64,000 nt of DNA from Candidatus Jacksonbacteria bacterium RIFOXYB2_FULL_44_15 (GTDB lineage: Bacteria > Patescibacteriota > Patescibacteriia > UBA9629), in contig MHJY01000010.1 in NCBI GenBank assembly GCA_001818235.1, positions 17,609-81,608 on the forward strand. The letters are read 5' to 3'. Shown in pieces: positions 50,951 through 52,575 of the stretch. A model generated the notes under the pieces. It ran no database searches. It was not told the DNA's origin and saw only the letters and a program-made list of their open reading frames with translations. A program made the translations under genes and the position numbers. How positions within the stretch are numbered: position 1 is the stretch's first letter; each line of letters begins with the position of its first letter.

Positions 50951-51745
50951 TTATTTCATCAACTTTTTGACTTCCAGCTCACTTAGCTTCCTAAATTGAC
51001 CAGTCGGCACATCTATTTTGACCGTCCCAATGCGAATTCTGACTAATTTGATTACTTTCCAACCTAAAGCTCCAAATATTCGCCGAATTATCCTTTTTTT
51101 GCCTGAATGAAGCACTAAATTGAGTTGAATGGTATCTGTGGATAACTTGTTGATATTGTTGATTTGATCTACTTTGGCCGCACCATCATCTAATTTAACC
51201 CCTCGTAATAATTGATCTTTGACTTGTTGAACATCAATGGGAGACACAAATGTTCCACGCCTGTCCCGTACCCGAGCGCGCCGAGTGGTTTGGGGCGGAA
51301 CATTTCTTGAGGCTTCAACGTAATACTCTTTTTCAACCTCAAATTTGGGGTGGGTCAGCTTATAAGCGAAATCCCCATCATTAGTTAAAATAATCAGGCC
51401 TTCGGTATCCGCGTCCAATCTACCCACCGGATAAACTTTAGGTATCCTTGGTACCAGGTCAACTACTTTTTTCACGGCAAATCGATCAGACAACGTGCAA
51501 ACGTAGCCAGCTGGTTTATTTACTAGATAGTAAACCAAGGCATCTGGGTCATTTATCAAAATGTTCCACGTGGAACATTCCGCCGCTTTTATTTTAACTT
51601 CGTCCTGTTGCGGATCAATTTTCTGACCGATGAGAGCAATAGAATCATTAACCATCACCACTTTTTGCTTAATTAACTCCACTGCCTTACGTCTTGAAAA
51701 TTGCGTATTTTTAGCGATAAATTGTTGAAGATAAACTTGTTTCAT
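50951..51745 (-). CDS. Pseudouridine synthase, RsuA/RluB family
   Basis: S4 domain plus VGRLDADTEGLIILTNDG catalytic motif. Confidence 0.85.
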   Translation of the reverse strand: MKQVYLQQFIAKNTQFSRRKAVELIKQKVVMVNDSIALIGQKIDPQQDEVKIKAAECSTWNILINDPDALVYYLVNKPAGYVCTLSDRFAVKKVVDLVPRIPKVYPVGRLDADTEGLIILTNDGDFAYKLTHPKFEVEKEYYVEASRNVPPQTTRRARVRDRRGTFVSPIDVQQVKDQLLRGVKLDDGAAKVDQINNINKLSTDTIQLNLVLHSGKKRIIRRIFGALGWKVIKLVRIRIGTVKIDVPTGQFRKLSELEVKKLMK

Positions 51746-51844
51746 GACTTATCAACAAGATGTCAACAAAAAATTAGGTGATTTTGTTGATATTCGGAAA
51801 TTAATGTGCTAGAATTGGATATTATGAAGTCCTGCGCGTTTGAT

Positions 51845-51886
51845 GTCATTACCGCGAAGGACGCTTAGCGTCCGAAAGCGGGAATC
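51845..51886 (-). repeat. Family-A motif copy (expanded internal hairpin) upstream of the pseudouridine synthase gene
   Basis: On the minus strand it reads GATTCCCGCTTTCGGACGCTAAGCGTCCTTCGCGGTAATGAC. Confidence 0.55.
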
Positions 51887-51909
51887 CAGTGTCTTACAAT
51901 CATTATCTA

Positions 51910-51933
51910 GATCCCCGCCTTCGCAGGGATGAC
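51910..51933 (+). repeat. Family-A motif copy (GATCCCCGCCTTCGCAGGGATGAC) upstream of tRNA-Val
   Basis: Plus orientation, 60 nt before the tRNA 5' end. Confidence 0.55.
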
Positions 51934-51993
51934 AAACTTAGTTTATCCGGTATTTATTACGGGAATGGGCAAACGAAACATGGCAAATATTAA

Positions 51994-52070
51994 GGGCGTA
52001 TAGCTCAGCTGGTTAGAGCGCTGCGTTCACATCGCAGAGGTCTCTGGTTCGAGTCCAGATACGCCCACCA
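51994..52070 (+). tRNA. tRNA-Val (anticodon CAC)
   Basis: Acceptor gggcgta/tacgccc, D-arm gctc-agctggtta-gagc, anticodon stem ctgcg/cgcag with loop ttCACat, T-arm tctgg-ttcgagt-ccaga, and an encoded CCA. Confidence 0.85.
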
Positions 52071-52126
52071 CGGTACGTCGCTCGAGAATGACGTATCACG
52101 TCGTTCGCGAACGACGAGGTGAACCA

Positions 52127-52150
52127 AAATGTTCCACGTGGAACATTTTT
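52127..52150. terminator. 24-nt perfect palindrome AAAATGTTCCACGTGGAACATTTT serving as a bidirectional terminator (tRNA-Val on plus, NUDIX on minus)
   Basis: It abuts the NUDIX stop codon. An identical 23-nt copy lies at 51557-51579 inside the pseudouridine synthase coding sequence. A second palindrome cgtcgttcgcgaacgacg lies at 52099-52116. Confidence 0.5.
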
Positions 52151-52575
52151 TATATTTTACCTAAATAATGCGCCAATTCTTTAGTTGTTGTCAACTTACG
52201 CGCTTGTTTGAGGGTTAACCAGCAATATTCATCATGCTCCTTAGAAAGTGTAATCTGACCGCTTACATAGTGACATTGATATAGAATATTAACGTAATGA
52301 ATATGTGTATCTACCACACCTTGAGTAGAATAGATTACAAGCGGCTTAATTGGCTTAACAACTAAATCAGTCTCTTCTTTGACTTCTCGCTTTAAGGCCT
52401 CTTCTGGTTGCTCAAAAGCATCAATCCCGCCGCCAGGCAAATCCCAACACCCAGGTTCAAAACTTTCGTGATTCGACCGTTTAACCAGCAAAAATTTGCT
52501 TGGCTTAAACCAATTCGGTTGATAAATAAGACCTTTGATGACTGCTTTGGTGATGTATTGTGGCATGGGATTCAA
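52150..52575 (-). CDS. NUDIX hydrolase
   Basis: Nudix box GGGIDAFEQPEEALKREVKEETDL. Confidence 0.8.
   Translation of the reverse strand: MNPMPQYITKAVIKGLIYQPNWFKPSKFLLVKRSNHESFEPGCWDLPGGGIDAFEQPEEALKREVKEETDLVVKPIKPLVIYSTQGVVDTHIHYVNILYQCHYVSGQITLSKEHDEYCWLTLKQARKLTTTKELAHYLGKI

What the first reader, a model, noticed from the sequence alone, without database searches (positions are those of the whole stretch)
51557..52151. Exact 23-nt palindromic repeat inside a coding sequence and at a bidirectional terminator, bracketing tRNA-Val
caaaATGTTCCACGTGGAACATt occurs at 51557-51579 (inside the pseudouridine-synthase ORF, encoding ECSTWNIL) and again at 52125-52150, where it terminates both tRNA-Val and the NUDIX gene. 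A 12-nt partial (aaatgttccacg) is at 51247. The two full copies flank about 570 bp containing both Family-A motifs and tRNA-Val. Identical 23-mers, one within a CDS, are unlikely by chance. They could be binding sites for a palindrome-recognising regulator (CACGTG core), recombination sites, or footprints of an element that inserted next to the tRNA.
Basis: seen in the sequence. Interest (0 to 1): 0.5.

Follow-up and report, generated by a model that had tools for sequence, protein, structure and literature searches.

The report
ParB-binding parS centromere sites
The repeated palindrome is the standard bacterial "centromere" sequence (parS) that the ParB protein binds to separate daughter chromosomes, which is ordinary; less ordinary is that a third copy nearby was split at its centre by a tiny GC-rich hairpin insertion, a kind of event that recurs, sometimes nested, in related uncultured bacteria.

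Summary
An exact 23-mer occurs at 51557-51579 and 52125-52147. Its 16-bp core, TGTTCCACGTGGAACA, is the canonical chromosomal parS site and is identical to Pseudomonas aeruginosa parS2/parS3.

In a scan of 185,579 species genomes, the 18-mer was found in at least 120 loci across many phyla. Its commonest neighbours there are gidA, parB, parA and gidB, the origin-proximal gene set.

The 23-nt identity follows from an extended consensus in candidate phyla radiation (CPR) bacteria, aAAW-parS-WTTt.

Copy 2 abuts the NUDIX stop codon and also scores as an intrinsic terminator. The tRNA-Val/pseudouridine-synthase adjacency is ancestral, so the sites are not footprints of an inserted element.

Two relatives have an intact parS at that codon position.

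The same insert "shell" (CYTGYCCCG...YGGGG) splits parS at other positions in relatives. In Parcubacteria-type metagenome contigs it often carries a new parS and forms nests up to four deep inside a Wzy_C membrane-protein gene. I found no description of this.

No ParB gene lies in the window, and binding is untested.

Verdict: a new member of a known kind, with an unexplained and possibly new insertion phenomenon attached.

The parts
51557..51579 (.). parS copy 1. The 16-bp core is 51562-51577 and the 20-bp perfect palindrome is 51560-51579. It lies in frame in the pseudouridine-synthase CDS and encodes ECSTWNIL.
   Evidence: Identical to P. aeruginosa parS2/3. It corresponds to an ~8-residue extra segment compared with more distant homologues. 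The same position is split by a 24-nt insert in relative L130 and is degenerate in L129.
52125..52150 (.). parS copy 2. The core is 52130-52145 and the 24-bp perfect palindrome AAAATGTTCCACGTGGAACATTTT is 52126-52149. It sits between convergent tRNA-Val and NUDIX and directly abuts the NUDIX stop codon.
   Evidence: Terminator-like hairpin with a 10-bp stem, 4-nt loop and T-rich tail on the plus strand. The hairpin is formed in the minimum-free-energy fold on both strands (-12.9 kcal/mol for the 56-nt minus-strand segment). A parS directly after a NUDIX stop codon is also seen in L129 and, read by eye, in Kerfeldbacteria locus L038.
51247..51306 (.). parS copy 3, split. Left half TGTTCCACG is 51251-51259. 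The 36-nt GC-rich insert is 51260-51295 (CCTGTCCCGTACCCGAGCGCGCCGAGTGGTTTGGGG). Right half CGGAACA is 51296-51302. It is in frame in the synthase CDS and encodes NVP-PQTTRRARVRDR-RGTF.
   Evidence: The orthologous codon positions in L129 and L130 hold an intact parS encoding VPRGT. The insert shell CYTGYCCCG...YGGGG is shared with the L130 inserts and with metagenome loci. The cargo CCCGAGCGCGCCGAG matches the Family-A core at 2526, 24958 and 60560(-).
50951..51745 (-). RsuA/RluB-type rRNA pseudouridine synthase gene, host of parS copies 1 and 3.
   Evidence: Pfam PF00849, E 4.8e-22. PDB RsuA/RluF/RluB hits. 100% identical to a Candidatus Jacksonbacteria protein.
51994..52070 (+). tRNA-Val(CAC), the ancestral divergent neighbour of the synthase gene. 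It is not part of the parS system.
   Evidence: A tRNA gene lies in the same position in L129, L130 and L131.
52150..52575 (-). NUDIX hydrolase gene, whose stop codon abuts parS copy 2.
51836..51945 (.). Two 'Family A' GC-rich hairpin repeats (GTCATTACCGCG...CGGGAATC on the plus strand, GTCATCCCTGCGAAGGCGGGGATC on the minus strand). They lie in the part of the tRNA-to-synthase spacer that relatives lack, and are probably inserted. They are related in core sequence to the cargo of the split parS.
   Evidence: The spacer is 248 nt here and about 60-70 nt in L129, L130 and L131.

Best explanation
The palindromes are chromosomal parS sites, the centromere-like sequences at which ParB (Spo0J) dimers load. 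By established knowledge of ParABS systems, ParB binds the 16-bp palindrome, closes into a CTP-dependent clamp and spreads over neighbouring DNA. The resulting complex is moved by ParA and loads SMC/condensin, so that newly replicated origin regions separate.

This Candidatus Jacksonbacteria (CPR/Parcubacteria) genome has two intact, perfectly symmetric sites 568 bp apart. One is tolerated in frame inside a pseudouridine-synthase gene. The other sits in the gap between two convergent genes, where its hairpin plus T-run probably also serves as a transcription terminator. A third site in the same gene has been split, and presumably inactivated, by a 36-nt GC-rich hairpin insertion one base off the dyad centre.

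Shown: sequence identity to experimentally defined parS; association of the same 18-mer with parAB/gidAB across phyla; intact versus split states at orthologous positions.

Inferred: that a Jacksonbacteria ParB exists and binds these sites; that the split site no longer binds; that copy 2 terminates transcription.
For: 1. The 16-mer TGTTCCACGTGGAACA is listed as parS2 and parS3 of P. aeruginosa (PMC4368675 Table 1) and as the P. putida parS. It fits the general consensus TGTTNCACGTGAAACA (PMC7022226 Table 1).

The loci range from 22% to 75% GC and span many phyla, and many hold 2-6 copies within a few kb.

3. Clustering of all ORFs in those loci gives the recurrent neighbours GidA/MnmG (40 loci), ParB (37), ParA (33), GidB (27), TrmE (16), YidC, RecF and GyrB (13 each). 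Pfam confirms these identities.

4. In the two complete genomes of the set, the sites lie within about 17-36 kb of the sequence end, that is, next to the origin.

5. Three sites lie within 0.9 kb in the window and none elsewhere in 64 kb, the clustered pattern typical of parS.

6. Relatives keep parS at the same codon positions of the same gene.

7. 68 distinct parS contexts from CPR-like loci share flanks aAAW...WTTt (A 91% at -2, 71% at -3, against a 32% background). This accounts for the identity over 23 rather than 16 nt.

8. Suggestive only: a cluster of DnaA-box 9-mers 20 kb away, and cumulative GC skew that falls to about 60 kb and then rises.
Against: - No ParB or ParA gene is in the window, in the 10-kb extension upstream, in the ~2 kb of contig that remain downstream, or in the CPR loci held here. 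This comes from Pfam scans, the flank gene lists, and phmmer and profile searches.
- dnaA/dnaN are absent from the window, so origin proximity is not established for this genome.
- No paper in the searchable library deals with ParB/parS in CPR bacteria.
- Binding has not been measured.
- Only two intact sites are seen here, and the main parS cluster of the genome may be elsewhere. In related Parcubacteria it lies in a Wzy_C-like gene.
Confidence: 0.88

Rival explanations
1. They are members of an intrinsic-terminator hairpin family. The copy inside the CDS would be a chance or attenuating occurrence.
For: Copy 2 meets the terminator pattern: a 10-bp stem, a 4-nt loop and a T-rich tail. It lies between convergent genes. 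In other phyla many copies sit at the tip of longer terminator-like hairpins.
Against: The loop and inner stem are invariant from 22% to 75% GC genomes, while the outer stems are locus-specific. That is the opposite of what terminator function alone would conserve. Copies 1 and 3 are inside a CDS with no T-run. Association with parAB/gidAB is not a terminator property. A terminator role for copy 2 is compatible with it being parS, not an alternative to it.
Confidence: 0.04
2. They are operators of a local transcription factor, for example one of the neighbouring TrmB-family or HTH-Fic proteins, which would regulate the synthase, tRNA-Val or NUDIX.
For: The site is a palindrome with a CACGTG core. 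HTH proteins are encoded close by: HTH-Fic at 49788-50876 and TrmB-like at 52635-53414.
Against: Neither intact copy is in a promoter. One is 166 nt inside a CDS and the other is at two gene 3' ends. The same sequence occurs across phyla without these regulators and with parAB. It matches an experimentally defined ParB site exactly.
Confidence: 0.03
3. They are att-like recombination sites, or the footprint of an element that integrated next to tRNA-Val and so bracket a 570-bp inserted segment.
For: Identical repeats flank a tRNA gene, and a defence-type island (TOTE AEP-helicase, Bles03-like, Fic) lies just beyond.
Against: tRNA and synthase are adjacent and divergent in L129, L130 and L131, so the segment is ancestral. 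No integrase or recombinase was found. The sites occupy conserved codon positions in relatives' genes. L131 has the tRNA but no parS.
Confidence: 0.02
4. The sites are primarily copies of a small mobile palindromic module (about 24 nt in the plain form, or 42 nt with a REP-like shell) that spreads by insertion, including into coding sequence. ParB binding would be what keeps them, or even what the module exploits.
For: - Copy 1 corresponds to an ~8-residue extra segment compared with distant homologues.
- CPR sites share a 22-24-bp extended consensus.
- Wzy_C-like genes of Parcubacteria carry up to 13 intact sites at variable positions.
- Shell-plus-parS units are inserted in the centre of other parS sites, up to 4 deep.
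Against: This is not exclusive of the best explanation, because the sites are still parS. No transposase or other enzyme has been identified. The extended consensus could instead reflect ParB contacts. Nest growth can occur by slippage. Creation of sites by point mutation is not excluded.
Confidence: 0.3

Closest known systems
Chromosomal parS of Pseudomonas aeruginosa (parS2/parS3) and P. putida
   Same: The 16-bp sequence TGTTCCACGTGGAACA is identical. It is a perfect palindrome, and sites are clustered a few per region.
   Different: The host is an uncultured CPR bacterium. The sites carry an extended A/T-flanked consensus. Two of the three are inside a protein-coding gene. The cognate ParB has not been seen.
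Bacillus subtilis parS sites (Spo0J), consensus TGTTNCACGTGAAACA, including the site inside the spo0J coding sequence (the coding-sequence location is from my own knowledge; the consensus is)
   Same: A parS tolerated in frame within a gene, and a ParB nucleation / SMC-loading function inferred by homology of the site.
   Different: One symmetric base pair differs (G/C instead of A/T at positions 5 and 12). Here the host gene is a pseudouridine synthase, and the positions are conserved among relatives at 57-59% protein identity.
REP / REPIN elements mobilised by RAYT (Y1 HUH) transposases
   Same: The insert shell is a conserved 5' tetranucleotide (CYTG) followed by a GC-rich imperfect hairpin (CCCCG...CGGGG). 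It is short (24-42 nt), dispersed and also free-standing.
   Different: It is inserted in frame inside genes and preferentially at the apex of the parS palindrome. No RAYT gene was found. The sequence is unrelated to known REPs. It can carry a functional-looking parS as cargo.
Rickettsia palindromic elements (RPEs), from my own knowledge
   Same: Short palindromic elements inserted in frame into protein-coding genes, adding a peptide segment without destroying the ORF.
   Different: RPEs are about 100-150 nt, are not targeted to parS, and occur in a different phylum. There is no sequence similarity.

Membership tests
Chromosomal parS (ParABS partition site) | A 16-bp palindrome matching TGTTNCACGTGAAACA or its G/C variant | tested here: met
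   Exact TGTTCCACGTGGAACA at 51562-51577 and 52130-52145. Identical to P. aeruginosa parS2/3.
Chromosomal parS (ParABS partition site) | The same motif co-occurs with parA-parB and origin-proximal genes in other genomes | tested here: met
   ParB in 37, ParA in 33, GidA in 40 and GidB in 27 of 120 loci. Positions next to the origin in two complete genomes.
Chromosomal parS (ParABS partition site) | Few copies per genome, clustered | tested here: met
   Three sites within 0.9 kb and none in the other 63 kb.
Chromosomal parS (ParABS partition site) | Located in the origin-proximal part of this chromosome | tested here: inconclusive
   No dnaA/dnaN in the window. A DnaA-box cluster lies at 31.37-31.56 kb, and the GC-skew minimum is near 60 kb. 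The contig ends about 2 kb past the window.
Chromosomal parS (ParABS partition site) | A cognate ParB (N-terminal CTPase domain plus HTH) is encoded in the genome | not testable with these tools
   None in the window or its flanks.
Chromosomal parS (ParABS partition site) | Specific ParB binding / nucleation at the site | not testable with these tools
   Requires EMSA, BLI or ChIP-seq.
Rho-independent terminator | GC-containing hairpin followed by a T-run at a gene 3' end | tested here: met
   Met for copy 2 only (52126-52149 plus TTATATTTTA). Copies 1 and 3 are internal to a CDS and lack the T-run. This is a secondary role, not the identity of the repeat.
Integrative-element att sites at a tRNA gene | Direct repeats bracket a segment that is absent from relatives, with an integrase nearby | tested here: not met
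   The tRNA-synthase adjacency is present in L129, L130 and L131. No integrase was found.
REP/RAYT-type elements (for the insert shell only) | Conserved 5' tetranucleotide plus imperfect GC-rich palindrome, many dispersed copies | tested here: inconclusive
   The CYTG+CCCCG...CGGGG architecture occurs in 42 distinct places, 6 of them away from parS, but the sample is biased by how the loci were found.
REP/RAYT-type elements (for the insert shell only) | A RAYT (Y1 transposase) gene in the genome | not tested
   No transposase appears among the window ORFs scanned. Whole genomes are not available here.

The most novel reading that the evidence does not exclude
In Parcubacteria-type CPR bacteria, parS is a dynamic insertion target rather than a static site. 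A tiny REP-like GC-rich hairpin (5'-CYTG, stem CCCCG...CGGGG, 24-42 nt, always a multiple of 3 inside genes) inserts one base off the dyad centre of parS (CACG^TGG), probably at the apex of the extruded hairpin.

Its cargo is either a GC-rich 'Family A'-type core, as at window 51260-51295, where it kills the site, or a fresh parS, which regenerates the site. Regenerated sites are hit or expanded again, giving alternating parS/hairpin nests up to four deep.

In this way parS arrays (up to 13 intact sites plus about 30 half-sites) build up in frame inside one Wzy_C membrane-protein gene, which then acts as the centromere region. The window shows the minimal version: two intact sites and one split site in a pseudouridine-synthase gene.
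Probability: 0.45. Interest if true: 0.7.

Novelty: new member of a known kind. Interest (0 to 1): 0.4.

Why it matters
As parS, the sites give a landmark for the origin/centromere region of an uncultured CPR genome. They show that the ParABS recognition sequence is conserved unchanged in this deep-branching, reduced-genome radiation, where I found nothing published on chromosome segregation.

They also warn annotators that conserved palindromes inside genes, and the odd peptide motifs they encode (VPRGT, CSTWN, FHVE), can be DNA-level signals.

If the split and nested sites reflect a real insertion process, two things would follow. It would be a rare case of a mobile or expanding micro-element that targets the centromere sequence itself. 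It would also offer a mechanism by which parS copy number and ParB loading capacity evolve, and by which short peptide insertions accumulate in CPR proteins.

Tried and rejected
- Rfam at gathering threshold over the window found only the two tRNAs.
- Folding the hairpins as RNA gave only the trivial palindrome stems.
- Crude regexes for ParB/DnaA motifs in six-frame ORFs found nothing. Pfam on about 36 window ORFs found no ParA, ParB, DnaA, DnaN, integrase or transposase.
- Extending the contig with the look-up of encoding contigs at both ends added HicAB, AbiEii, TrmB and radical-SAM genes but no par or dna genes. It also showed that four assemblies all end about 2 kb past the window.
- phmmer and a 41-sequence ParB profile against all ORFs of the CPR loci hit only one high-GC, non-CPR locus.
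- Literature searches for parS/ParB with CPR, Patescibacteria, Saccharibacteria or Parcubacteria, for nested parS, and for the encoded peptides found nothing relevant. The TIGR-Tas paper's ParB-like genes are unrelated.
- About two thirds of the 68 metagenome hits to the split-site pattern are high-GC coding sequences with no shell motif. A 40-nt group (L132 and similar) is not a multiple of 3. I treat both sets as chance or unrelated.
- I considered that nests prove serial re-insertion. I rejected this as proof because L186 differs from the otherwise identical L138/L155 by one 19-nt right-arm unit only.
- I considered TIGR or CRISPR-like arrays for the nests. I rejected this because the arrays are mirror-symmetric and lie in frame inside a conserved membrane-protein ORF.
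Full report
OBSERVATION. The 23-mer caaaATGTTCCACGTGGAACATt is present at 51557-51579 and 52125-52147. Its 16-bp core occurs exactly twice in 64 kb. Even allowing three mismatches, 0.14 matches are expected, and no shuffle of 100 reached two. Copy 1 lies inside a minus-strand RsuA/RluB-type pseudouridine-synthase gene (50951-51745; Pfam PF00849; PDB hits to RsuA, RluF and RluB) and encodes ECSTWNIL. Copy 2 is a 24-bp perfect palindrome (52126-52149) between tRNA-Val (51994-52070) and the stop codon of a NUDIX gene (52150-52575). 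The protein is 100% identical to one from Candidatus Jacksonbacteria RIFOXYC2_FULL_44_29, a CPR/Parcubacteria bacterium.

IDENTITY. The loci come from Bacteroidota, Acidobacteriota, Actinomycetota, Bacillota, Planctomycetota, Pseudomonadota, Patescibacteria and others, range from 22% to 75% GC, and frequently hold 2-6 copies within a few kb.

That pattern fits a universally conserved protein-binding site. Literature search confirmed that TGTTCCACGTGGAACA is parS2 and parS3 of Pseudomonas aeruginosa (PMC4368675 Table 1) and the parS of P. putida. It is a variant of the general chromosomal consensus TGTTNCACGTGAAACA (PMC7022226 Table 1).

As an independent test, I clustered all ORFs of the 120 loci. 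The families that recur next to the motif are GidA/MnmG (40 loci), ParB (37), ParA (33), GidB/RsmG (27), TrmE (16), and YidC, RecF and GyrB (13 each), with identities confirmed by Pfam. This is the classic origin-proximal gene set. In the two complete genomes in the set, the sites lie at 4.560-4.568 of 4.577 Mb (Neobacillus) and 5.192-5.200 of 5.228 Mb (Terriglobus roseus), next to the origin. I therefore identify the window's palindromes as parS sites with high confidence.

WHY 23 NT AND NOT 16. In 68 distinct parS contexts from CPR-like loci, the flanks are strongly biased: A or T at -1 (never G or C), A 91% at -2, A 71% at -3 and A 57% at -4, against a 32% A background, with mirror-image values on the other side. 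The CPR site is effectively aAAW-TGTTCCACGTGGAACA-WTTt. Two sites agreeing over 23 nt therefore need no special history. Whether this reflects extended ParB contacts or the size of an inserted module is open.

HOW IT PROBABLY WORKS. By established knowledge of ParABS systems (reviewed in PMC7022226), ParB dimers nucleate at parS, bind CTP, close into sliding clamps and spread. The complex is segregated by ParA and loads SMC. Nothing in the window contradicts this, but the protein side is unverified. No ParA, ParB, DnaA or DnaN is encoded in the window, in the 10 kb upstream or the ~2 kb of contig left downstream, or in the CPR loci I hold.

Origin proximity is only suggested. There is a 1.4-kb AT-rich intergenic gap at 30.6-32.0 kb with two perfect TTATCCACA boxes 11 nt apart plus further DnaA-box-like 9-mers. 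Cumulative GC skew falls until about 60 kb and then rises.

Copy 2 additionally meets the pattern of an intrinsic terminator (10-bp stem, 4-nt loop, T-rich tail), so a dual role is plausible there. A parS directly after a NUDIX stop codon recurs in relative L129 and, read by eye from the sequence, in a Kerfeldbacteria genome (L038).

The 'inserted element next to the tRNA' idea fails. In L129, L130 and L131 (50-59% protein identity) a tRNA gene lies divergently just upstream of the same synthase gene. In L131 it is 90% identical to this tRNA-Val, although L131 has no parS at all. What is new in the window is about 180 nt of extra spacer holding two 'Family A' GC-rich hairpins (51836-51945). 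No integrase is present. A local transcription-factor operator is unlikely, because neither intact copy lies in a promoter and the motif is pan-bacterial.

THE 'PARTIAL' COPY IS A SPLIT parS. At 51247-51306 the sequence reads AAATGTTCCACG, then a 36-nt insert, then CGGAACATTT. The synthase has NVP-PQTTRRARVRDR-RGTF here. Its closest relatives P0002 and P0003 have VPRGT at the same place, and their DNA shows an intact TGTTCCACGTGGAACA.

The gene in this lineage has three parS positions:
- Position A, at about nt 169: intact in the window, split by 24 nt in L130, degenerate in L129.
- Position B, at about nt 440: split by 36 nt in the window, intact in L129 and L130.
- Position C, at about nt 690: absent in the window, intact in L129, split by 36 nt in L130.

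L130 has a further intact site just past the stop codon.

The three inserts share their ends...TGTTCCACG | CYTGYCCCG ... YGGGG | (T/C)GGAACA... The window's insert is in the opposite orientation to the gene and the L130 inserts are in the same orientation, so this is a DNA-level feature rather than a protein-level one. The window insert's interior, CCCGAGCGCGCCGAG, matches the core of the Family-A repeats (CCCGAGCTTGCCGAG at 2526, 24958 and 60560 minus).

HOW GENERAL IS THIS. My single metagenome scan, for TGTTCCACGC-N15-45-GGGGYGGAACA, gave 68 loci. About two thirds are high-GC coding sequences without the shell motif, and I treat these as chance or unrelated. About twenty low-GC (32-41%) loci carry the same shell.

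In most of these the shell's cargo is a complete new parS, forming a 42-nt unit CYTGCCCCGTAnAA-TGTTCCACGTGGAACA-TTnnTAC(T)GGGG. In others the cargo is a GAGCGAAGCGA-type hairpin (33 nt) or a 30-nt hairpin. All insert lengths (24, 30, 33, 36, 36, 42) are multiples of three.

Many are nested. L168 has three left units (TGTTCCACG + shell-left), one central intact parS and three right units (shell-right + TGGAACA). L138 and L155 have four of each, and L139 and L179 have two of each. A second insert type, CCGCCTCG...CGAGGCGGG, splits other sites in L139 and L198.

Every composite lies inside a long ORF that reads through it. The hosts are homologues of one O-antigen-ligase-family (Wzy_C) membrane protein. 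The same gene, full of parS, is present in named Parcubacteria (L084) and Moraniibacteria (L076) genomes. One such gene (L197) holds 13 intact sites and 31 half-sites. Their translations are peppered with the three reading frames of parS (NVPRGTF, CSTWNI, MFHVEH).

Of 42 distinct shell occurrences in 243 kb, 36 abut a parS left half and 6 are free-standing hairpins. This proportion is inflated by the way the loci were selected. A free-standing relative in the window, at 57292 on the minus strand, appears to sit one base off the centre of a different palindrome (CAAGCG^CTTG, my reading).

MECHANISM OF THE SPLITS (INFERENCE). The filled/empty pairs at three orthologous positions show that these are insertions into parS. 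The conserved 5' CYTG plus GC-rich stem, the small size and the free-standing copies resemble REP-type elements. The junction falls in the 4-nt loop that the parS hairpin would expose, so insertion at the apex of an extruded hairpin in single-stranded DNA is my best guess. No enzyme has been identified.

Nest growth has two candidate routes: re-insertion of a 42-nt unit into the regenerated central parS, or slippage between the repeated half-sites within each arm. The second route certainly happens, or else the assemblies collapse repeats. L186 is 100% identical to L138/L155 over 680 nt except for the loss of a single 19-nt right-arm unit, which frameshifts the gene. Because the left unit (23 nt) and right unit (19 nt) only preserve the frame together, selection alone would favour equal numbers on the two sides. 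The symmetry therefore does not prove re-insertion.

COMPARISON AND NOVELTY. As parS, the finding is a new member of a well-known kind. It is the same 16-mer as in Pseudomonas, and it is tolerated inside a gene like the B. subtilis site in spo0J (my own knowledge). I found no paper on ParB/parS in CPR bacteria, on split or nested parS, or on the encoded peptide motifs. Absence from this library is not proof of novelty. The split and nested sites work somewhat like REP/REPIN elements, and somewhat like Rickettsia palindromic elements (in-frame insertions in genes), but they meet the tested criteria of neither family.

VERDICT. Confidence that these are parS sites is about 0.9. Confidence that they are used as such in this organism is somewhat lower, pending a ParB. 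Interest is modest for the sites themselves. It is raised by the split third copy and by the related nested arrays, which are unexplained and possibly new.

Noticed in passing
window 30600-32000: A 1.4-kb AT-rich (36.5% GC) intergenic gap between hsp20 and ruvB. It holds two perfect DnaA boxes TTATCCACA 11 nt apart (31418, 31429), plus TGTTGATAA (31368) and GTGGATAAC (~31552). TTATCCACA occurs 4 times in the window against about 0.5 expected. It is a candidate oriC or DnaA-regulated region, 20 kb from the parS sites. Rfam found nothing there.
   Followed up: partly
window 246(-), 2521, 2599(-), 20804, 24953, 51845, 51933(-), 60474, 60565(-): 'Family A' GC-rich hairpin repeats, (T)TGTCATyCC + stem-loop + GGrATC, for example TTTGTCATCCCGAGCTTGCCGAGGGATC. 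They are dispersed in intergenic DNA. Their core CCCGAGCnnGyCGAG also forms the cargo of the insert that splits parS at 51260-51295.
   Followed up: partly
window 57240-57300 (minus strand, shell motif at 57292): A free-standing hairpin with the same shell start as the parS inserts: CTTGTCCCGCC...GGCGGGATAG. Its flanks CAAGCG|CTTG would join into a 10-bp palindrome, which suggests insertion near the centre of another palindrome.
   Followed up: no
window 52076-52116: A strong GC-rich hairpin (ACGTCGCTCGAGAATGACGT...ACGTCGTTCGCGAACGACG) immediately 3' of tRNA-Val and upstream of parS copy 2. Fold z-score -4.7 for the 52070-52160 segment.
   Followed up: no
window 47132-50876: A conflict-system-like cluster next to the synthase gene: TOTE-type AEP primase fused to an SF2 helicase (47132-49291), a Bles03-like protein (49293-49718) and an HTH-Fic protein (49788-50876).
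   Followed up: no
window 52635-62023: Three paralogous TrmB-family regulators (52635-53414, 54932-55711, 59705-60433) interleaved with radical-SAM genes (55915-57162, 60785-62023). More radical-SAM/B12-binding genes lie just past the window end (L121).
   Followed up: no
L121-L124 (contig ends ~2 kb beyond window position 64000): Four independent assemblies of this organism all break at about the same point downstream of the window, which suggests a repeat there that assemblers cannot cross.
   Followed up: no
L001-L120 (149 parS sites): Across phyla, parS often sits at the tip of a longer, locus-specific palindrome. 28% of sites extend the palindrome by at least 3 bp beyond the 18-mer (about 2% expected) and 13% by at least 5 bp (0.14% expected), up to 17 bp. 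Many have terminator-like A/T tails (L022, L052, L093, L118).
   Followed up: partly
L197:1896-4676, L139:1264-3378, L166:4405-6432, L084:6843-8000, L076:6192-8000 and others: In Parcubacteria-type genomes one Wzy_C (O-antigen ligase family) membrane-protein gene carries the main parS array in frame: up to 13 intact sites and 31 half-sites. This gives proteins dotted with NVPRGTF, CSTWNI and MFHVEH segments.
   Followed up: partly
L138:4568-4751 versus L186:3083-3247: Otherwise identical contigs (100% over 680 nt) differ by one 19-nt right-arm unit of the four-level parS nest. In L186 this splits the Wzy_C ORF by frameshift. It is either real slippage polymorphism or a repeat collapse in assembly.
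   Followed up: yes
L139 (~2890-2955) and L198 (~10545-10610, minus-strand orientation): A second type of parS-splitting insert: ATGTTCCAC | CCGCCTCGACTCGCGAAGGTTGCTCGTCGACGCGAGGCGGG | CGTGGAACAT. It is a different GC-rich hairpin at the same central position.
   Followed up: no
L013:2033-2103; L072:135-592: L013 (Bacilli) has a Noc-binding-site-like palindrome ATTTCCCGGGAAAT exactly between two parS sites 53 bp apart. L072 (Muribaculaceae, 22% GC) has alternating TGTTTCACGTGAAAC / TGTTCCACGTGGAACA sites, each followed by a DnaA-box-like GTGGATAAC or TGTGAATAA, which looks like an oriC with interleaved parS.
   Followed up: no
L129:788-803 and L038:~585-600 and ~1179-1196: A parS directly abutting the stop codon of a NUDIX hydrolase gene recurs in a Jacksonbacteria relative, and in a Kerfeldbacteria genome where sites flank both ends of the gene. 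The L038 gene was identified as NUDIX by eye only. This may be conserved micro-synteny.
   Followed up: no
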